From positions 32,001 through 96,000 of the forward strand of contig JABIGM010000050.1 in assembly GCA_018650165.1 (NCBI GenBank): 64,000 nucleotides of DNA, written 5' to 3'. The DNA is from Methanobacteriota archaeon. Its GTDB lineage: Archaea > Thermoplasmatota > Poseidoniia > Poseidoniales > Poseidoniaceae. How positions within the stretch are numbered: position 1 is the first letter of the stretch; every line of letters starts with the position of its first letter. The notes beneath the pieces were generated by a model. The model saw only the letters and a program-made list of their open reading frames with translations, was not told where the DNA came from and searched no databases. The position numbers and the translations under genes were made by a program. Below, in pieces: positions 2-61,544 of the stretch.

Positions 2-2821
2 CGCCCTGGAGATTTCATAACTGCATGGGACCCTGTTTCTCTTGAAGTACAAGTCACTAATACTGGTTTCTTTTACAATACTGAAACACGAACTATTGAA
101 TGGTTTGTTTGTGAAGGGGTAAAGGATGTTAGTACTTGTTTTAACGAAAGGGAAGATTATGGAACTGGGGCAATTGAACCGATTGCGGTTGGACAAAACT
201 TAACTTACACATTCCTCACTTACTTTAGTTCTGACGGAGATGAAGGCGCCTATACCCTGGTTTATAGATTCTCAGATTCCGACACAAATACTACGAATGA
301 TGTTGGAATCTATACTTTTAATTTCGCACAACAATTGGTAGATGTCTCCGTGGGAGCGCAAGACCCAATCGGCCAATTGAGTGGATTAGCAAATTACAAT
401 GGTGAAATGATACTCAATACTGACACCGATTATAATATGAGTATAGATGGAATTGTTTCTTCGTGCGCATCATGCGGATTAGTAGCAGGAATTGGATGGG
501 AGTTAATTGACAATTCTGGAACAGTTGTAGCTAATTCATCAAACCAGGTTTCTAATTTACCTTCATGGGGCCAGACCACATTCACAAGGGATATGCCGCC
601 TCTCAATTTCGACACCGAGGGCCGCTATACACTGTCATATGGCCTGATGAATTCGAATGGGACACCTTTAGGTGACATGAATGCGTACAATGATGTTCAG
701 AGTGTAGAGGTCGTATTTGATGACACTGTCGACCTGCAAGTTACCTCTATGTACCCTCTAAATGCTCCGGATTCCTCGACATACTTCTATGGAGATGATA
801 GCGTCTCTGTGACTATATCGAACATAGGAAATCATTCTGTTGTCGAACCTCTAGTAAGGTTCTCTGTAATGGATTTGAGCGGAACTACTGAATCCGAAGA
901 AGATTGTAATCCATCAGTAATTTTGCCAGGCCAATACGAGAGATGTATTTTCGATTTGAACAAGTTAGGCGATAAAAGACTCAAGGTATTCGTAAGTGAA
1001 GCCTTAGAAGAAGGCACTGATGCTAAGCCGGCTGACAACGTGCTGAATGTAGTTTCAGAGGTTATTGCTGGCGATATTAATCCTCTTATTGAACAGAGTA
1101 ATTTCTATGGGAAATACAAGACTGCAGACAACATTACTTTCACAGCACGTACACTGACAACAGCCGCTGGACCACTCACATATTCATGGTATCTAGCAGG
1201 CATGATAGAACTGTCGACCTTACCAGGCTTCATAGAACTCGGAGCAGAAGGTAAAGAAGTGCAAATTCCTGCAAGCGGGATTGGCCTAGGTGACCATTTC
1301 ATTACGCTTAGAGCCGTTGATGCCCTCGGCACAACGGAGTCTACCACTACTGAAATAACAATATTCAACAGTACGGATATTGGAGTTGGCAATTGGATGA
1401 ATGGTTCAGCCGTCACCAGAACACATGCAATCGGAAATTCGATGTATGACTTCCCTCTTTCAGGGGTAAATTATGGACCGGGTGAAAACTTGGAAGCTTT
1501 GCTAAGATTTTCCATAGATGTAATTCCGACAACAGAAGAAATTGATGCCGGAATGGATTGGATGGAATTTGATATTAACATTACATCTTTAATTCCAAAT
1601 AATGTCCCTCGTTCATCTATTGCCATCCACCAATTATATGGATTTGACCAGTTAGATTGGGACCCACTTGATGGAGATAATAGTTTCGAAATCATTGACA
1701 ATGACACCATCAGAGTACACATTATCGAAAACATGGATCTATTACTTGTTGGAGAATTGCCCCCCCCAAATATCGATTCGGGACAGCCAATATTGACACT
1801 CCTCCCTGATGGAGAAATGCAAATCGATTGGGAACCAACTGGAGATTTAACAAATCCATACTTTGGAGGATGGAATATCTATCGAGTTACTAGCCCGATT
1901 ACAGCATCTGCATATTTCCCTGACCCTGAAACCGTTAACAGTGAATTTGTCTGGAATGGTTTGATGAGTGGGACACTATCTGTTACTCTAGAAGGTACAA
2001 CAAATAGTTGGATAGATGAACGGCAATTAGAAACAGGCATTTGTGCATCCTATGCAATTATCCCAATTGATAGAGCTGGCAATCCTGAACACTTGAAAGC
2101 AAAGGTATCCTTAGAAAATGGTTTACCTGGACTAACATGTGGTGATTCAATCGACCCTTCAGCAGAAGTAAGTGGGTTTAAAGCAACTACATCTTACAAC
2201 AATGCCACTTCATGTTACGACCGATTCAATGATTGGAATCGATGCTACGAAATCGAATTGTCTTGGACATGGCCAGATAATGAGCCTGAGGGTGAACTCT
2301 CATGGAACTTATACCGAATTGAACAAAAACCGCAAGATGTAGATTTGAGGTATATTGACCCACTCGTTACTAATTTGACAAATGTTCCCGGTGAAAAGGG
2401 CTCTCTGGTACAATATGGAACTGAATATGATGGAATAATGCCATACAGGACATATTACTACATCCTTGCACCGTTAGATAGCGTGGGTAACGAATACACA
2501 GTAGTAGAATACCCTTCAAGCAATGTGAAACGAGTGTATGTTGAGGACCAATACTGGGTTTACAATGAATACCGTATTCCTGAGCCACCTGAGCCACCTG
2601 AGCCTCCATATGGAATCGAATGGTTAGGGGAACTCGAAGAATACATGCAAATTGAAAATTTCCAAATTGCAGGCATGGTGATGCTGCTTACAATAGTAAT
2701 CAACTTCGTGGGACTGCCTCTGGTTCTGAAAAAGCGTAAGAAGATGGCAAGGGTCCTAGCAAAGCGTGCTGCAAATCAGCCAACGGATTTGGATGATGAG
2801 TTCGAAGATTTCTTCAACTGA
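2..2821 (+). CDS. Large membrane-anchored extracellular multidomain protein (beta-sandwich/CARDB- and FN3-like repeats), 5'-truncated
   Basis: The frame of ORF 335..2821 stays open back to base 2 (RPGDFITAWDPVSLEVQVTNTG...). Thr/Asn/Asp-rich; V-S-V-T-I-S-N-I-G-N CARDB-like segment; W-x-x-Y-R and Y-x-I-x-P-x-D-x-x-G-N FN3-like segments twice; PEPPEPPEPP linker; C-terminal TM (FQIAGMVMLLTIVINFVGLPLVL) followed by KKRKK and an acidic tail. Confidence 0.75.
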   Translation, partial: RPGDFITAWDPVSLEVQVTNTGFFYNTETRTIEWFVCEGVKDVSTCFNEREDYGTGAIEPIAVGQNLTYTFLTYFSSDGDEGAYTLVYRFSDSDTNTTNDVGIYTFNFAQQLVDVSVGAQDPIGQLSGLANYNGEMILNTDTDYNMSIDGIVSSCASCGLVAGIGWELIDNSGTVVANSSNQVSNLPSWGQTTFTRDMPPLNFDTEGRYTLSYGLMNSNGTPLGDMNAYNDVQSVEVVFDDTVDLQVTSMYPLNAPDSSTYFYGDDSVSVTISNIGNHSVVEPLVRFSVMDLSGTTESEEDCNPSVILPGQYERCIFDLNKLGDKRLKVFVSEALEEGTDAKPADNVLNVVSEVIAGDINPLIEQSNFYGKYKTADNITFTARTLTTAAGPLTYSWYLAGMIELSTLPGFIELGAEGKEVQIPASGIGLGDHFITLRAVDALGTTESTTTEITIFNSTDIGVGNWMNGSAVTRTHAIGNSMYDFPLSGVNYGPGENLEALLRFSIDVIPTTEEIDAGMDWMEFDINITSLIPNNVPRSSIAIHQLYGFDQLDWDPLDGDNSFEIIDNDTIRVHIIENMDLLLVGELPPPNIDSGQPILTLLPDGEMQIDWEPTGDLTNPYFGGWNIYRVTSPITASAYFPDPETVNSEFVWNGLMSGTLSVTLEGTTNSWIDERQLETGICASYAIIPIDRAGNPEHLKAKVSLENGLPGLTCGDSIDPSAEVSGFKATTSYNNATSCYDRFNDWNRCYEIELSWTWPDNEPEGELSWNLYRIEQKPQDVDLRYIDPLVTNLTNVPGEKGSLVQYGTEYDGIMPYRTYYYILAPLDSVGNEYTVVEYPSSNVKRVYVEDQYWVYNEYRIPEPPEPPEPPYGIEWLGELEEYMQIENFQIAGMVMLLTIVINFVGLPLVLKKRKKMARVLAKRAANQPTDLDDEFEDFFN

Positions 2822-2871: not shown

Positions 2872-2954
2872 GCGGCGATCGCATAGCCTGGCCATTGCGT
2901 CGGATTGCTAATCCGATGGGTCTTCCCACGGGGGTTCGAATCCCCCTCGCCGCG
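2872..2954 (+). tRNA. tRNA-Ser (GCU)
   Basis: Acceptor stem GCGGCGA/TCGCCGC, anticodon stem TCGGA/TCCGA with loop TTGCTAA (GCT at 2907-2909), long variable arm GGG-TCTT-CCC, T arm GGGGG-TTCGAAT-CCCCC, discriminator G. CCA not encoded; no intron. Confidence 0.97.
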
Positions 2955-57411: not shown

Positions 57412-59328
57412 ATGAAGGAGAGAATTCCAGCACTGTTGCTAGCAATCCTGATGGCAACAATGTCATTCACAACTGTAACAAGCGCCGAAGATTCAGGACG
57501 ACAAGCGATGGACGTAGATTGTTCAGGCTATACATTTGAAGACCTTTTTGAATACAATAATGCTGTCTTTATGTTTGAAATTTTAGATGATTGGGCGACC
57601 TCTGATTTGTACGCTAATTCATGGGTCAATGAGAGCCGCGCTTCTGTTGTTAGAGATAATCTGGACAGTTTGTTCGAAGGCCTACCTGGAGGAAATGACA
57701 ACTGGATTTCAACTGATGAGAGAGATGCTGTAAGAGAAATCGGTGCCAAGTGTATTGCAGACATGTACACTCGAATTGGAATTCGTGAAGGGCTCCCACA
57801 TCGTGGAGATGTAGATTGGAATGATGTGACGTTCGTCGAAGAAGGTATTGGGCTAGAAGAAGTTAACTTAGTTCCAGAAGGGCATCCAGACGAGAGGGTT
57901 TGCCCCGCTAGTTCAGGACGTATTCCAAGTGATGATTGTAAAGAAGTTCCAACTACTGCAACCAATAACCTTGAGATCTCGATGTTTACAAAAGAAGATG
58001 AAACGCACAATACTAGATTCAATCAACTTCCAAATTTCGGAAATGGAGATTATGAAAACCAAACATTCACAGTCGCCATGAATGCAACAAATGTAACAAG
58101 CGCCACTATGGTGTTCTCATTCCCATACGTTGACGGCCTTAGAATGGCAAACTGGACCATCGAAGATGATGGCGAAACCAATCTAGAAGCAGGGTCTATT
58201 ATTGAAACACACCTTCCTGATGGAAGCGTTAGAGTAACCCTAACCATCGGTTACGACAAAGCAGATTACCCAATGATTCGAAATATCTTCTTTGACATGA
58301 CGACCACTCCTCCTGAAGAAAATGATATTCCAGTTTGGAGTTCTTATGCTCCTGAAGATAATACAATTATCCCAATTATCAAAGATGGTAGTGAAGTTGT
58401 TGCAATCACTGGAAACACGATGGAAAACTGGGCTAGCGATGATAACGCATGGGGCCTAGACTGTGAATTTGCTGAAACCGGCTGGTCCAGTAGAATGAAT
58501 TCCGATGGTGAACTTTTAGTAACATCTGGCTCTTCTGAATCTGGAACTGCAGAGTGCTCTATTGTCGACCCATATGGTGCTACAAACAATGAAACTCACA
58601 CATGGAGGTTTGGCCAGCCTGCGAGTTTTTCAGCAGTAGCAGGTAGTTATTCTGATTCGGTTGATATCGATGCAAATCCGACACTGTTAGTGCAAAGCCT
58701 CGCTGTTGGAATGGCTGCATACCAAAATGGTGGAGATGGGCCGGTAACCAATTTTAATCTCGGCACAACTTCATCCTCAAACTCCGTTAGCTTATCTGGG
58801 ATGTCACCTGGTGAATTCATGATTCACGTTACTGCAAGTTCGGATGGAATGTTAGATTGGAATACAATGTTAGACCTTTCATTAGAAAAGAAGAACACAC
58901 CTCCTGTAATTACTGTCAAAACTGACGAAATCGACGGGACTCAGGCTACTTGGGCATCAGACCAGTACTCGTTCAGTCTATCAGGTACTGCAATTGACCC
59001 CGATGGAGGTGTAGTAACCCTATCTGCAAATATGTGTGGAGAAACCACTACTGCATTCACTAGAGATGGTGAAAATTGGGATGTTAGCCTATCAATCGCA
59101 AAGTGTGTATCCGATGGAGTAACTCAGTATGATGTCATCATTACGGCTACCGACCCCGTTAATGGGATAGCCACTGCAGATGTAAGTGTCCCAGATCCAT
59201 TTGCTGGTTCTAACACAGACACAGGCGACACAGATACCTCAGCCGAAGAGAGCGGCCTACCTTCAATCGGCATGTTTGCAACAATCATTTCGATGCTAGG
59301 TGCTGCACTTTTACTACGCAGAGACTAA
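57412..59328 (+). CDS. Exported acidic protein with C-terminal TM sorting-like signal
   Basis: Signal peptide; Asp/Thr/Ser-rich beta domains; NTPPVI...DPDG (PKD/cadherin-like); C-terminus EESGLPSIGMFATIISMLGAALLLRRD. Confidence 0.75.
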   Translation: MKERIPALLLAILMATMSFTTVTSAEDSGRQAMDVDCSGYTFEDLFEYNNAVFMFEILDDWATSDLYANSWVNESRASVVRDNLDSLFEGLPGGNDNWISTDERDAVREIGAKCIADMYTRIGIREGLPHRGDVDWNDVTFVEEGIGLEEVNLVPEGHPDERVCPASSGRIPSDDCKEVPTTATNNLEISMFTKEDETHNTRFNQLPNFGNGDYENQTFTVAMNATNVTSATMVFSFPYVDGLRMANWTIEDDGETNLEAGSIIETHLPDGSVRVTLTIGYDKADYPMIRNIFFDMTTTPPEENDIPVWSSYAPEDNTIIPIIKDGSEVVAITGNTMENWASDDNAWGLDCEFAETGWSSRMNSDGELLVTSGSSESGTAECSIVDPYGATNNETHTWRFGQPASFSAVAGSYSDSVDIDANPTLLVQSLAVGMAAYQNGGDGPVTNFNLGTTSSSNSVSLSGMSPGEFMIHVTASSDGMLDWNTMLDLSLEKKNTPPVITVKTDEIDGTQATWASDQYSFSLSGTAIDPDGGVVTLSANMCGETTTAFTRDGENWDVSLSIAKCVSDGVTQYDVIITATDPVNGIATADVSVPDPFAGSNTDTGDTDTSAEESGLPSIGMFATIISMLGAALLLRRD

Positions 59329-59364
59329 CCGTCACACTGAAAAGCAGAACGCCGAGGGCGTGTT

Positions 59365-60516
59365 ATGTTCAAAGGCAGGGTGGAGAGTGTCAGCCATGAA
59401 GGCGGCTTACTCGTATCATACTCAGGTGCTTGTCCTGCTCTAGGGTCGGTTATGATCGATTCTGGCGAGACATATATCGGCAAAGTTGATGGAGTAATTG
59501 GTAATCTAAAAGAGTCACTGGTACACATTGCTCACCTCGACAGAAAATCAAATCCCGAAGCTATGCTTGGTCTAGAAATTACAATTAGAACTCGTAAACC
59601 GAGGGATAAACAACACTCGAGTGATGGTCGTCGCGACCGAGATAATCGGGGCGAGCGGGGTGACCGGGGAGGTCGAGATGACAATCGTGGAGACCGCAGG
59701 GGACGCGATAACCGCGGAGACCGAGATAATCGAGATAATCGAGGTGGGAATTCAAACCATCAAAACCGGGATTGGGATTGTCCTAAATGTAATAATTCTA
59801 ATTTTTCTTTCAGAACAGAATGTAATCGCTGTGGCGAGCAAAAAGGAAGAGGCGGTTCTAACTTCCAACGCGATGACAGGCGTGGAAGAGACGACAGGCG
59901 TGGAAGAGACGACAGGCGAGATAATGACCGCCGTGACAATCGTAATACTCACGGCGATAATGATTGGGATTGTCCGAAATGTAAAAATTCCAATTTCGCA
60001 TTCCGAACAGAATGTAATCGCTGCGGCGAATCTAAGGGCAGAGGTGGCTCAAATTTCCAACGTAACGACCGCCGAGGAAGTGATGAGCGACGTGGCGGTA
60101 ATGATCGCCGAGGAAGAGACGATAGACGCGGAGGTAATGACCGACGTGGAAATGGTAACACTCACGGAGAAAATGACTGGGACTGTCGAGAATGTAAGAA
60201 TTCTAACTTTTCATTCAGGAATGAATGTAACAGATGTGGCGCACCTAAAGGAAGAGGGAGTGCACCAACTCAAAAATGGGAAGGTAATGATCGTAGGGCC
60301 GGAGATAGAAATGAATCATCTCAGCCTAGAGCGGGTGATTGGGATTGTCCACAATGTGGTAAATCCAACTTTGCAAAACGCAATGATTGCTTTGGCTGTG
60401 GACGCTCAAAAAGGGTTGGCGGCCCTCGAAATAAAGGACACCACCGCAAATTACGCGACCCCCCGAAATTGCAATCTGCTAAGTACGGTCGCGGTGAGCG
60501 GAGGAATAACGAATGA
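59365..60516 (+). CDS. Gar1/Naf1-like N-terminal domain fused to RGG/RD tracts and four RanBP2-type zinc fingers
   Basis: The first about 75 aa (...IGKVDGVIG....VHI) resemble the archaeal Gar1 core; four W-D-C-x2-C-x3-N-F-x5-C-x2-C fingers at about 59770, 59962, 60175 and 60337. Confidence 0.82.
   Translation: MFKGRVESVSHEGGLLVSYSGACPALGSVMIDSGETYIGKVDGVIGNLKESLVHIAHLDRKSNPEAMLGLEITIRTRKPRDKQHSSDGRRDRDNRGERGDRGGRDDNRGDRRGRDNRGDRDNRDNRGGNSNHQNRDWDCPKCNNSNFSFRTECNRCGEQKGRGGSNFQRDDRRGRDDRRGRDDRRDNDRRDNRNTHGDNDWDCPKCKNSNFAFRTECNRCGESKGRGGSNFQRNDRRGSDERRGGNDRRGRDDRRGGNDRRGNGNTHGENDWDCRECKNSNFSFRNECNRCGAPKGRGSAPTQKWEGNDRRAGDRNESSQPRAGDWDCPQCGKSNFAKRNDCFGCGRSKRVGGPRNKGHHRKLRDPPKLQSAKYGRGERRNNE
59770..60411 (+). 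repeat. Four RanBP2 zinc-finger repeats with RGG/RDDR spacers
   Basis: DWDCPKCNNSNFSFRTECNRCG, DWDCPKCKNSNFAFRTECNRCG, DWDCRECKNSNFSFRNECNRCG, DWDCPQCGKSNFAKRNDCFGCG; short DNA repeats such as gacgacaggcgtggaaga. Confidence 0.92.
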
Positions 60517-61544
60517 GTGCTGAAAGCCATTATCTTGATGCAATTGAAGCAGAAGAGAATGGTGAAATTGACAGTGCCTTAGAGCATGCTAGGCTTGCTG
60601 TCGAAGCAGACCCTGAGCATTCAAACGCATGGTGGATGATTGCATGCCTCCTTTCGCCCGAAGGAAAATATCCAGATATCGAGCAAGCATCAAAGGCAGT
60701 AGTTGCATGTAATAAAGTCATAGACATCGATCCTTCTAGAGTTGATACATGGGTCAAATGTGGACGCTTGATGGTTGATCATTTGGGTCTGCACGAAGAT
60801 GCTCTCGCATGGTGGCAGCGCTGCAGAGAAGCTGCTCCACTAGAATCGGTTCCGATTATAGAACAAGTAACAATTCTTTCAGACCTGGGAATGTATGCTG
60901 AAGCAAGAGACCGCTTAAGTGCGCTTTTCGAAGAGAATTTAGATATTGCAAATTCGCAACTTGCACGAATTACACATCTGCACAAAACTCTCGAGCGTTC
61001 GGCTCAACAGGACCCGAAAGTCCATTTCAAACCGTGGCAAAAAAATCATGGAGGATGGACTGCAATTAAGATGCGAGCAAACAAAGCACCTGTTTCGGAA
61101 AACATGTTGTTTATGTTGTCCACAGTTCCATTTTTGATGATGGAAGTTTTTGCTGCAAGGGCATTATTTGGTTCGGGATGGGGTGCATTTTGTCTGACAA
61201 GCCTGCTTATTTTAGTGACCGTAATAATCGGTATGTCCTTCACAAGAAAATTGTATCAACGAGTGAATAGACCAGGTTTCAACTTACTAAGAGCGATTCA
61301 ATTTGAGGCGAGTTGTGGAAAAGTCGTAATCCCTGAAGATATTCGAGCCTCGAAATTATACATGTTCCTATTCGCTCGACATCCACCTGCATTTCAGCAA
61401 AGATTAGAGAAAATTGTCGAGGCAGACCGTAAACTTCCAAGGAATTGGAAAATGAATCTGCCTGATTTTGAATCACATTACGATGAGATAGGATACATCG
61501 ATGATGAACAAGAAGAAGACTTGACTTCGTACGAAGAAGAGTGA
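60513..61544 (+). CDS. TPR-repeat protein with two central TMs
   Basis: A-x3-D-P-x4-W TPR patterns (AVEADPEHSNAW, IDIDPSRVDTW); hydrophobic pair about aa 200-245; 4-bp overlap with the zinc-finger gene. Confidence 0.72.
   Translation: MSAESHYLDAIEAEENGEIDSALEHARLAVEADPEHSNAWWMIACLLSPEGKYPDIEQASKAVVACNKVIDIDPSRVDTWVKCGRLMVDHLGLHEDALAWWQRCREAAPLESVPIIEQVTILSDLGMYAEARDRLSALFEENLDIANSQLARITHLHKTLERSAQQDPKVHFKPWQKNHGGWTAIKMRANKAPVSENMLFMLSTVPFLMMEVFAARALFGSGWGAFCLTSLLILVTVIIGMSFTRKLYQRVNRPGFNLLRAIQFEASCGKVVIPEDIRASKLYMFLFARHPPAFQQRLEKIVEADRKLPRNWKMNLPDFESHYDEIGYIDDEQEEDLTSYEEE

What the first reader, a model, noticed from the sequence alone, without database searches (positions are those of the whole stretch)
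59365..60516. Archaeal Gar1-like protein with FUS/ZRANB2-like zinc fingers and RGG low-complexity tracts
Seen: a short beta-rich N-terminal domain resembling Gar1/Naf1, long R/G/D/N tracts (RGGRDDNRGDRRGRD) and four fingers; finger 3 reads NFSFRNECNRCGAPK and finger 4 is preceded by RAGDW. Established: RanBP2-type fingers of FUS (RAGDWKC...NFSWRNECNQCKAPK) and ZRANB2 bind GGU-containing ssRNA; RGG tracts drive RNA binding and phase separation; eukaryotic Gar1 has RGG arms, whereas typical archaeal Gar1 is the bare core. Inference: a eukaryote-like multivalent RNA-binding, possibly condensate-forming, protein in a non-Asgard archaeon, potentially recruiting H/ACA pseudouridylation (Cbf5) to RNA targets. 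Strong candidate for an undescribed system.
Basis: partly seen in the sequence, partly recalled or inferred. Interest (0 to 1): 0.88.

Follow-up and report, generated by a model that had tools for sequence, protein, structure and literature searches.

The report
Archaeal Gar1 with FUS-like zinc fingers
In the abundant ocean archaea Poseidoniales (Marine Group II), the normally tiny Gar1 subunit of the RNA-guided pseudouridine machine carries a long disordered arginine-rich tail with zinc fingers of the type FUS and ZRANB2 use to bind RNA; published work treats such RNA-binding extensions on Gar1 as eukaryote-specific.

Summary
Window 59365-60516 (+) is a real 383-aa gene.

- **Gar1 core:** residues 1-78 fold as a Gar1 barrel. 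The top structural hits are P. furiosus and yeast Gar1, with TM 0.76-0.81 and Z 10.8.
- **Tail:** four RanBP2-type zinc fingers follow (Pfam E 2e-29), separated by disordered R/G/D/N-rich linkers.
- **Finger types:** fingers 1-3 carry the GGU-contact residues of ZRANB2/FUS. Finger 4 resembles RBM5/RBM10.
- **Orthology:** this is the only Gar1-like gene in the genome, which also encodes Cbf5, Nop10 and L7Ae. It is single-copy in 115 of 121 genomes sampled from the order Poseidoniales.
- **Sister family:** it has a bare 74-aa Gar1 and no such fingers. Elsewhere in the phylum, one unrelated gene had a finger above the cut-off.
- **Variation:** finger number runs from 0 to 5 through tandem duplication of finger-linker modules.
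- **Partner gene:** a TPR-transmembrane gene with an acidic tail lies directly downstream throughout the order.

My reading is that this is the lineage's Gar1 orthologue, with an added multivalent tail that binds single-stranded RNA. RNA binding, Cbf5 binding and condensate formation are untested. I found no paper describing it. This scan has noted the same architecture before, in at least 17 other genomes. Novelty: a new variant of a known kind.

The parts
59354..59358 (+). Shine-Dalgarno-like GAGGG, 6 nt before the ATG. Only 36 nt separate this gene from the stop of the upstream 638-aa surface-protein gene.
   Evidence: Read directly from the sequence.
59365..60516 (+). Complete gene for the extended Gar1 (383 aa plus stop).
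   Evidence: ORF listing and translation. There are more than 368 homologues, all carrying PF00641; those with a source name are from Poseidoniales, Poseidoniaceae or Euryarchaeota.
59365..59598 (+). Gar1 core beta-barrel, aa 1-78.
   Evidence: AF2 model with pLDDT 87.9. Foldseek top hit is 2ey4_D (E 2e-4, TM 0.76/0.81), followed by about 12 further Gar1 chains. VIA gives Z 10.8 and 10.5 for P. furiosus Gar1 and 9.9 and 9.8 for yeast Gar1. hhalign against sister-lineage Gar1 gives Prob 84.5, E 6.9e-6.
59599..59766 (+). Disordered Arg-rich linker 1 (aa 79-134), holding the RGGRDDNRGDRRGRD tract.
   Evidence: pLDDT below 50 in the full-length model. Composition.
59767..59850 (+). RanBP2-type zinc finger 1 (aa 135-162), type A (FUS/ZRANB2-like).
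   Evidence: PF00641, 33.8 bits. pLDDT about 91. Contact-residue signature D, N, F, F, R, N.
59851..59955 (+). Disordered linker 2 (aa 163-197). It contains a perfect 18-nt tandem repeat at 59875-59918 that encodes a repeated six-residue R/D/G unit.
   Evidence: TRF: period 18, 2.4 copies, 100% matches. pLDDT below 50.
59956..60042 (+). RanBP2-type zinc finger 2 (aa 198-226), type A.
   Evidence: PF00641, 34.1 bits. Best PDB match is ZNF265/ZRANB2 finger 1 (1n0z_A, E 1.1e-5). pLDDT about 90.
60043..60168 (+). Disordered linker 3 (aa 227-268), with a 36-nt repeat array at 60062-60151.
   Evidence: TRF. pLDDT below 50.
60169..60255 (+). RanBP2-type zinc finger 3 (aa 269-297), type A.
   Evidence: PF00641, 35.2 bits. 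PDB matches are ZRANB2 finger 2 (2k1p/3g9y) and FUS (6g99_B). pLDDT about 90.
60256..60327 (+). Disordered linker 4 (aa 298-321).
   Evidence: pLDDT below 50.
60328..60411 (+). RanBP2-type zinc finger 4 (aa 322-349), type B (RBM5/RBM10-like: K14, K19, R20, F24).
   Evidence: PF00641, 35.9 bits. PDB matches are RBM5 (7pdv_A) and RBM10 (2mxv_A). In the family, type B is always the last finger. pLDDT about 62.
60412..60513 (+). Conserved basic C-terminal tail (aa 350-383), with the motif GHH..K...DPP.L...KYGRG and a K/R-rich end.
   Evidence: When a type B finger is present, a tail of about 37 aa follows it and is conserved in near relatives. Related GHH/HAH...P..F..RRR ends occur in family f3.
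60500..60504 (+). GGAGG Shine-Dalgarno motif for the downstream gene, embedded in the last codons of gar1. An ATGA stop/start overlap lies at 60513-60516.
   Evidence: Read directly from the sequence.
60513..61544 (+). Conserved downstream partner gene: N-terminal TPR repeats, 1-2 transmembrane helices, and an acidic tail ending in EEE (343 aa).
   Evidence: Only TPR families hit in Pfam. It lies directly downstream of the Gar1-like gene in families f1, f2 and f3. It does not lie next to the bare gar1 of sister family f4 and was not found there with this query.

Best explanation
This gene is the Poseidoniales (Marine Group II archaea) orthologue of Gar1, the accessory subunit of the box H/ACA pseudouridine synthase complex (Cbf5-Nop10-L7Ae-Gar1 plus guide RNA).

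What the tools show: the N-terminal 78 residues are a Gar1 barrel. The remaining roughly 300 residues are beads on a string, with four folded RanBP2-type zinc fingers separated by disordered, net-basic R/G/D/N-rich linkers and ending in a conserved basic tail.

What I infer: the barrel docks on the catalytic domain of Cbf5, as in other archaea. Fingers 1-3 each bind a GGU-like trinucleotide in single-stranded RNA, and finger 4 binds GGN or GGG. Together with the Arg-rich linkers, they give the H/ACA particle, or free Gar1, a multivalent RNA-binding arm of low sequence complexity. That arm would raise local affinity for substrate RNA such as pre-rRNA or tRNA, or act as an RNA chaperone. It would be the functional counterpart of the GAR/RGG domains of eukaryotic Gar1.

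The arm evolved by tandem duplication of finger-linker modules, and finger number ranges from 0 to 5 across the order.
For: **Fold.** The AF2 model of aa 1-81 has pLDDT 87.9. Foldseek's top hits are P. furiosus Gar1 in the Cbf5-Nop10-Gar1 complex (2ey4_D, E 2e-4, TM 0.76/0.81, 28% identity), then about 12 eukaryotic Gar1 chains. The independent VIA aligner gives Z 10.8 and 10.5 for archaeal Gar1, 9.9 and 9.8 for yeast Gar1, and 8.9 for the next, unrelated barrel.

**Sequence.**
- Gar1 is the only Pfam family hit for 16 of 23 N-domains, best E 6.7e-5.
- hhalign of the three-family profile against the sister lineage's Gar1 gives Prob 84.5 and E 6.9e-6, in register over the G.V..V.G...P motif.
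- The top six PDB sequence hits are all Gar1.
- A profile search of 1.84 billion representatives recovers bare 75-95 aa proteins. Three of these pass Pfam's Gar1 cut-off (33.5, 33.2 and 32.6 bits) and two reach about 26.7 bits.

**Orthology.**
- It is the only Gar1-like locus in this genome.
- It is single-copy in 115 of 121 genomes of the order, and in 54 of 56 high-quality ones.
- No genome of families f1 or f3 shows a second, bare gar1, whereas sister family f4 has a 74-89 aa Gar1.
- No ORF is hidden upstream of tfb, the gene that bare gar1 overlaps in f4.
- The genome encodes Cbf5 (DKCLD + TruB_N + TruB_C_2 + PUA), Nop10 and L7Ae.

**Fingers.**
- PF00641 matches at E 2e-29.
- The best solved relatives are ZRANB2, FUS, RBM5 and RBM10, all RNA binders.
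- Across 314 family fingers, the ZRANB2 contact positions are D 100%, N76 83%, F at the W79 position 96%, R82 100% and N86 83%. The contacts themselves come from PMC11789483.
- PMC6384913 shows that FUS and EWS, which have an aromatic residue at R19, still bind GGU, and that fingers with N14 and N24 replaced (an F24 in ABI3-5Sup, hydrophobic residues in RBM10) bind GGN or GGG.

**Disorder.** Linkers have pLDDT below 50 and fingers 1-3 about 90.

**Modular growth.** There are 192-213 nt direct repeats at 64-76% identity and perfect 18-nt repeats.

**Eukaryotic parallel.** PMC8096250 reports that deleting the RGG domains of yeast Gar1 changes RNP dynamics and substrate turnover.
Against: - The N-domain scores below the curated Gar1 cut-offs of Pfam (19 against 29.3 bits) and NCBIfam (about 20 against more than 100 bits), so it has diverged strongly.
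- Family-invariant residues such as SHEGG and AH.DR are not part of the canonical Gar1 pattern.
- The gene has left the gar1-tfb neighbourhood seen in the sister lineage. It is now coupled to a membrane TPR protein, which could signal a changed role.
- Binding to Cbf5, zinc and RNA was not tested and cannot be tested here.
- No H/ACA guide RNA has been identified in this genome.
- Finger 4 is modelled with only moderate confidence (pLDDT about 62).
- One homologue of an RNA-binding finger class (worm T0B2.5) failed to bind RNA despite keeping the contact residues (PMC6384913), so the residue signature does not guarantee binding.
Confidence: 0.72

Rival explanations
1. The barrel descends from Gar1, but the protein no longer works in the H/ACA particle. 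Instead it is a general RNA chaperone, ribosome-assembly factor or RNA-tethering factor that acts with the co-translated membrane TPR protein. One possibility is that it holds RNA or RNPs at the membrane, with the partner's acidic EEE tail masking the basic arm.
For: The N-domain has diverged strongly and scores below the Pfam and NCBIfam cut-offs. The gar1-tfb linkage seen in the sister lineage is lost. Coupling to a TPR-TM-acidic-tail gene is conserved across the order, with an ATGA overlap in this genome. No orthologue of the partner was found in the sister family with this query.
Against: No other Gar1 candidate exists in about 120 genomes that keep Cbf5-type machinery. The Gar1 signature motif and the fold are retained. 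Gene adjacency alone does not show a shared function.
Confidence: 0.15
2. The fingers are protein-binding or DNA-binding modules rather than RNA binders. They could be ubiquitin-like or Ran-like ligand binders, as in Npl4, ZRANB1 or Nup153, or binders of single-stranded DNA.
For: The RanBP2 finger family includes protein-binding members. Some fingers with RNA-like residues did not bind RNA in SELEX (PMC6384913). Nothing here measures binding.
Against: The closest solved sequences are all RNA-binding fingers. D4, N14, the aromatic residue at position 17, R20 and N24 are conserved at 83-100% across 314 fingers. ZRANB1-B, whose human counterpart binds ubiquitin rather than RNA, has K and S at positions R19 and R20, whereas R20 is invariant here. 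The fingers sit in a Gar1 protein with an Arg-rich tail, which is an RNA context.
Confidence: 0.08
3. The gene is eukaryotic contamination, a chimeric assembly, or a spurious ORF produced by repeats.
For: RanBP2 fingers are overwhelmingly eukaryotic. The region has tandem repeats that open long false ORFs in other frames.
Against: The same gene sits in the same neighbourhood, with the TPR gene downstream and the 638-aa surface protein upstream, in 115 of 121 genomes of the order. GC content is 0.44-0.45, within the window's overall range of 0.40-0.50. Gene overlap and Shine-Dalgarno motifs are prokaryotic in style. The frame is supported by two independent domain families.
Confidence: 0.01

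Closest known systems
Archaeal Gar1 (H/ACA sRNP subunit; e.g. Pyrococcus furiosus Gar1 in PDB 2EY4, 2HVY, 3HAY)
   Same: It has the same six-stranded barrel (TM 0.76-0.81, 26-28% identity) and the same G.V..V.G...P signature in register. It is single-copy and co-occurs with Cbf5, Nop10 and L7Ae. P. furiosus Gar1 also ends in a short Lys-rich tail.
   Different: Canonical archaeal Gar1 is a bare protein of about 75-105 aa. This one has about 300 extra residues holding four zinc fingers and disordered Arg-rich linkers. The core is diverged enough to fall below the curated HMM cut-offs. The gene neighbourhood also differs: a TPR-TM partner here, where the sister lineage has tfb.
Eukaryotic Gar1 (yeast Gar1p, human GAR1; PDB 3U28, 7TRC)
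   Same: A Gar1 core plus Arg/Gly-rich disordered extension(s) thought to add RNA affinity. Some relatives in family f3 carry long, true GGGGR-type GAR tracts. PMC8096250 lists RGG domains as a feature that distinguishes eukaryotic Gar1 from its archaeal counterpart.
   Different: Eukaryotic Gar1 has GAR domains on both sides of the core and no zinc fingers. Here the extension is C-terminal only, is mixed-charge R/G/D/N in this genome, and is punctuated by RanBP2 fingers. The extensions probably arose independently, which is an inference.
RNA-binding RanBP2-type zinc fingers of ZRANB2, FUS/EWS/TAF15 and RBM5/RBM10
   Same: They share the W-x-C-x2-C-x3-N-x6-C-x2-C scaffold. Fingers 1-3 keep D4, N14, an aromatic at position 17, R20 and N24, plus an aromatic at position 19 as in FUS and EWS. 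Finger 4 has K14, K19, R20 and F24, as in RBM5/10. Identity to FUS or ZRANB2 fingers is about 50-60% over about 27 residues.
   Different: In eukaryotes these fingers sit in splicing and transcription factors, next to RRM or SR/RGG domains. Here they form arrays of 1-5 on an archaeal H/ACA subunit. Neither their RNA specificity nor their evolutionary origin was determined.

Membership tests
Gar1 (Pfam PF04410; H/ACA RNP subunit) | Six-stranded beta-barrel fold of the Gar1 core. | tested here: met
   The AF2 model has pLDDT 87.9. The top Foldseek and VIA hits are archaeal and eukaryotic Gar1 (TM 0.76/0.81; Z 10.8 to 9.8), ahead of unrelated barrels at Z 8.9 or less.
Gar1 (Pfam PF04410; H/ACA RNP subunit) | Sequence-profile membership. 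| tested here: inconclusive
   It scores below the curated cut-offs: Pfam 19 bits against 29.3, and NCBIfam about 20 bits against 106-139. However, Gar1 is the only family hit, in 16 of 23 members. hhalign against sister-lineage Gar1 gives Prob 84.5, E 6.9e-6. The reciprocal library search recovers bare proteins that pass the Pfam cut-off.
Gar1 (Pfam PF04410; H/ACA RNP subunit) | Sole Gar1-type gene in a genome that also encodes Cbf5, Nop10 and L7Ae. | tested here: met
Gar1 (Pfam PF04410; H/ACA RNP subunit) | Binds the catalytic domain and thumb loop of Cbf5 and stimulates turnover. | not testable with these tools
   No complex prediction or biochemistry is available here.
RanBP2-type zinc finger (Pfam PF00641) | W-x-C-x2-4-C-x3-N-x6-C-x2-C motif, scoring above the family cut-off. 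| tested here: met
   Four copies are present. The whole protein scores 101 bits against a cut-off of 27, and each finger scores 34-36 bits.
RanBP2-type zinc finger (Pfam PF00641) | Compact zinc-ribbon fold that coordinates one Zn through four Cys. | tested here: inconclusive
   Fingers 1-3 are modelled as small beta-hairpin units at pLDDT about 90, and finger 4 at about 62. The finger models were not fold-searched, and zinc binding cannot be tested.
ssRNA-binding (GGU) subclass of RanBP2 fingers (ZRANB2, FUS, EWS) | Contact residues D4, N14, W/F17, R19 (or an aromatic), R20 and N24. | tested here: met
   Fingers 1-3 have D, N, F, F, R, N. The family-wide frequencies are 100%, 83%, 96%, 69% F (K/R in 27%), 100% and 83%. 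The residue roles come from PMC11789483 and PMC6384913. Finger 4 instead has K14, K19, R20 and F24, as in RBM5/10.
ssRNA-binding (GGU) subclass of RanBP2 fingers (ZRANB2, FUS, EWS) | Measured sequence-specific binding to GGU-containing single-stranded RNA. | not testable with these tools
   This needs EMSA, ITC or SELEX.
GAR/RGG domain | Disordered region with clustered RGG/RG repeats. | tested here: inconclusive
   The linkers are disordered (pLDDT below 50) and Arg/Gly-rich (R 26%, G 18%), with 6 RGG and 18 RG motifs. They also hold 15% D and 12% N, so they are mixed-charge. Relatives in f3 have classical GGGGR tracts. Arginine methylation and phase separation cannot be tested.

The most novel reading that the evidence does not exclude
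Poseidoniales independently built a eukaryote-like, multivalent RNA-binding Gar1, or acquired the finger module from planktonic eukaryotes. This Gar1 would concentrate H/ACA particles and nascent rRNA into a condensate-like, nucleolus-analogous assembly. The co-translated membrane TPR protein would regulate or anchor it, with its acidic EEE tail engaging the basic arm.
Probability: 0.15. Interest if true: 0.88.

Novelty: new variant of a known kind. Interest (0 to 1): 0.68.

Why it matters
RGG extensions on Gar1 are described as a feature that separates eukaryotic from archaeal H/ACA particles (PMC8096250). RNA-binding RanBP2 fingers have been characterised in eukaryotic splicing and transcription factors.

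Here a whole order of very abundant, uncultured marine archaea outside the Asgard group has a Gar1 with both kinds of add-on. This offers three things:
- a natural experiment on what such tails do for an H/ACA enzyme;
- a prokaryotic source of compact GGN-binding finger arrays with naturally varying copy number (0-5);
- a test case for whether eukaryote-like RNA-binding architecture arises by convergence or by gene transfer from plankton.

It also corrects database annotation, where most members are labelled 'hypothetical' or 'zinc finger protein'.

Tried and rejected
- **Contamination or chimera:** rejected. The gene and its neighbours recur across the order.
- **A second, canonical gar1:** none in this genome, and none in the f1/f3 genomes searched with PF04410. 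There is no ORF upstream of tfb, where bare gar1 lies in the sister lineage.
- **Weak finger hit on contig 11 near cbf5:** this is the C-terminal zinc ribbon of an unrelated membrane protein.
- **The one above-cut-off finger hit in the phylum outside the order (G193):** a Pro-rich membrane protein with a single generic finger that lacks the RNA-contact residues.
- **Viral source of the fingers:** no relative found in IMG/VR viral contigs or in phage records.
- **Protein atlas on the finger region:** the best clusters are eukaryotic (Chlorophyta, Haptophyta), but at scores of 0.78, below the level the tool treats as meaningful. I did not use this as evidence of transfer.
- **First N-domain profile (A1):** built from near relatives and including tail residues. 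It gave only a weak hhalign result (Prob 4.7, E 0.0085) and a PDB E of 0.13. A clean profile from all three families (A4) was needed.
- **Rfam scan of the window:** found only a tRNA. I did not attempt a search for H/ACA guide RNAs.
- **Non-Gar1 hits in the library search (WD40 proteins):** these are short repeated partial matches and were ignored.
- **Finger phylogeny:** not attempted. At about 27 residues the domain is too short for a reliable tree, and Poseidoniales sequences would saturate the capped hit lists.
- **Literature:** five literature searches, four of them aimed at this question, found no paper on a Gar1-RanBP2 fusion or on Gar1 in Marine Group II.
Full report
**Observation.** The ORF at window 59365-60516 (+) is present exactly as described and encodes 383 aa. 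Pfam finds four RanBP2-type zinc fingers (PF00641, E 2e-29, 101 bits against a cut-off of 27). A six-frame scan of the whole 1.75-Mb genome finds above-cut-off fingers only in this gene. The 209 linker residues are R 26%, G 18%, D 15% and N 12%, with 6 RGG and 18 RG motifs. The whole protein has 89 K+R against 62 D+E, so it is net basic. The tail is therefore an Arg-rich mixed-charge tract, not a pure RGG domain.

**The N-terminal domain is Gar1.**
- Sequence signals for the single protein are weak, but they point only to Gar1: Pfam PF04410 at E 1.2e-3 (19 bits against 29.3) and archaeal Gar1 equivalogs in NCBIfam at E about 4e-4 to 6e-4.
- An AF2 model of aa 1-81, built with 21 relatives, is confident (pLDDT 87.9).
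- Foldseek's best match is P. furiosus Gar1 from the Cbf5-Nop10-Gar1 crystal structure (2ey4_D, E 2e-4, TM 0.76/0.81, 28% identity). About a dozen yeast, insect and human Gar1 chains follow.
- The independent aligner VIA, run against 48,161 chains, also ranks Gar1 first: Z 10.8 and 10.5 for archaeal Gar1 and 9.9 and 9.8 for yeast Gar1. The first unrelated barrel is at Z 8.9.
- My first profile, built from near relatives only, compared poorly with the sister lineage's Gar1.
- A clean 78-residue profile drawn from all three families of the order (A4) gave hhalign Prob 84.5 and E 6.9e-6, in register over the Gar1 signature G.V..V.G...P. It also made the top six PDB sequence hits all Gar1.
- Used against 1.84 billion representative proteins, that profile found 133 proteins at E 1e-3 or better. 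About 112 of these, at E 1e-10 or better, are the family itself. At the tail are bare 75-95 aa proteins. Three of them pass Pfam's Gar1 cut-off (33.5, 33.2, 32.6 bits) and two reach about 26.7 bits.
- Sequence alone therefore links the domain to canonical Gar1 by a transitive step.

**It is the lineage's Gar1 orthologue, not an extra paralogue.**
- This gene is the only Gar1-like locus in the genome.
- The genome also encodes a dyskerin-type Cbf5 (DKCLD, TruB_N, TruB_C_2, PUA), Nop10 and L7Ae.
- The N-domain profile hits one gene in 115 of 121 genomes sampled from the order (54 of 56 high-quality genomes), in all three families.
- Homologues that carry a source name are from Poseidoniales, Poseidoniaceae or Euryarchaeota. 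JGI already labels a few 'rRNA processing protein Gar1', while NCBI calls them 'hypothetical' or 'zinc finger protein'.
- A PF04410 scan of 151 genomes of the class shows that the sister family f4 (genomes of 1.0-1.4 Mb) has a bare 74-89 aa Gar1 above the cut-off. In Poseidoniales the only hit is always the extended gene.
- In f4 the bare gar1 overlaps a TFB gene. In this genome nothing is encoded upstream of tfb.

**The fingers.**
- The best solved relatives are ZNF265/ZRANB2 fingers 1 and 2, FUS, RBM5 and RBM10, all of which bind single-stranded RNA.
- The published ZRANB2-GGU contacts are Asp68 and Arg81 to G1, Val77 and Arg82 to G2 with Trp79 stacking, and Asn76 and Asn86 to U3 (PMC11789483).
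- Across 314 fingers from 121 family proteins, the equivalent positions are D 100%, N 83%, S at the Val77 position (a backbone contact), F 96%, F 69% or K/R 27%, R 100% and N 83%.
- PMC6384913 shows that FUS and EWS, which carry an aromatic residue in place of Arg81/R19, still bind GGU at about 0.2 uM. It also shows that fingers with both Asn replaced (an F24 in ABI3-5Sup, hydrophobic residues in RBM10) tolerate any third base.
- Fingers 1-3 here are of the first kind, which I call type A. Finger 4 (K14, K19, R20, F24) is of the second kind, type B.
- Across the family the order is fixed. One or more A fingers come first. When a B finger is present it is always last, followed by a conserved tail of about 37 residues.
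- In the full-length AF2 model the barrel (pLDDT 80-87) and fingers 1-3 (about 90) are folded, and finger 4 is moderate (about 62). All linkers and the tail are below 50, giving beads on a string.

**Distribution and evolution.**
- Above-threshold RanBP2 fingers occur in 63 of 65 genomes of family f1 and in 26 of 40 of f3. None were found in the 43 genomes of the sister family f4.
- Among the roughly 230 other genomes of the phylum, only one gene passes the cut-off. It is an unrelated membrane protein with a generic finger.
- Members of f2 and several f3 genera have the Gar1 core plus a basic R/G/K/S tail of 70-140 residues with no fingers. Others have one to three fingers, some with long GGGGR tracts very like eukaryotic GAR domains.
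- In the window gene the finger-linker modules are 192-213 nt direct repeats at 64-76% DNA identity, and the linkers contain a perfect 18-nt repeat. This explains the variable finger number (0-5) by tandem duplication and slippage.
- I infer that a basic tail arose at the base of the order and that fingers were inserted and multiplied later. Alternatively the fingers were ancestral and were lost in some lineages.
- The source of the first finger is open. No viral relatives were found. The atlas pointer to algal proteins is too weak to use.

**Neighbourhood.**
- The gene starts 36 nt after a 638-aa surface-protein gene and is preceded by GAGGG.
- Its stop overlaps the start of the next gene (ATGA), whose GGAGG lies within the last gar1 codons.
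- That next gene encodes TPR repeats, one or two transmembrane helices and an acidic tail that usually ends in EEE.
- It lies directly downstream of the Gar1-like gene in f1, f2 and f3, including the forms without fingers.
- It does not lie next to gar1 in f4, where only generic TPR matches of about 19 bits were found with this query.
- The pairing is thus as old as the tail. What it means is unknown. It is the main reason to keep the rival reading of a changed role.

**Mechanism.**
- Shown: domain identities, disorder, residue conservation, orthology and distribution.
- Inferred from established knowledge of archaeal H/ACA RNPs: the barrel binds Cbf5 and modulates its thumb loop.
- Inferred from the residue signature: type A fingers bind GGU/GGG, and the type B finger binds GGN.
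- Inferred by analogy with eukaryotic Gar1, where deleting the RGG domains changes RNP dynamics and substrate exchange (PMC8096250): the arm increases RNA affinity or chaperones substrates.
- Condensate formation is possible but has no direct support.

**Novelty.** Five literature searches, four of them aimed at this question, found no description of a Gar1-RanBP2 fusion, of archaeal Gar1 with RGG tails, or of Gar1 in Marine Group II. [quoted passage not shown] Within this scan the same architecture has been reported before in at least 17 other genomes, with the same reading. My evidence was gathered independently and agrees. I rate it a new variant of a known kind: a known subunit with a previously undescribed, lineage-wide domain architecture.

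Noticed in passing
G000 contig C24:4178-5791 (- strand; outside the window): This is a DEAD-box RNA helicase with a C-terminal tail of about 130 residues that is very rich in RGG/GGGR. A genome-wide scan for R/G-rich 40-residue windows found four ORFs; this one and the extended Gar1 scored far above the other two.
   Followed up: partly
window 60513-61544 (+): This TPR + 1-2 TM + acidic ...EEE tail protein is translationally coupled to gar1 through an ATGA overlap. It lies directly downstream of the Gar1-like gene in all three families of the order, and was not found next to, or as an orthologue of, anything in the sister family. TPR domains that recognise acidic C-termini are known in eukaryotic co-chaperones. 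Whether this one binds its own tail or the basic Gar1 arm is unknown.
   Followed up: partly
L036:1495-1719 and L038:1498-1722 (sister family f4): Here a bare 74-aa gar1 overlaps the start of a TFB (transcription factor B) gene. This gar1-tfb pairing is lost in Poseidoniales.
   Followed up: partly
G080:C38:28086-28385 and G080:C37:5954-6259: One genome of the same family has two copies of the extended Gar1 gene (open frames of 461 and 284 aa) on different contigs. This could be a real duplication or strain heterogeneity in the assembly.
   Followed up: no
window 59621-60523 (+) and several minus-strand ORFs within 59325-60530: Long alternative-frame ORFs of up to 300 aa lie over the gene. They are by-products of the codon-periodic R/D/G repeats, not genes.
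   Followed up: partly
window 57412-59328 (+): This is a 638-aa secreted or surface protein with a weak PGF-CTERM-like end. It sits immediately upstream of gar1 and keeps that position throughout family f1 (35-72% identity).
   Followed up: partly
L062 (G193:C2), ORF 1392-2741 (-): A high-GC relative in the same phylum encodes a 449-aa multi-pass membrane protein with a long Pro-rich linker. It has a single C-terminal RanBP2/NZF-like finger that lacks the RNA-contact residues.
   Followed up: partly
window 2872-2954 (+): A tRNA gene, the only Rfam match in the window.
   Followed up: no
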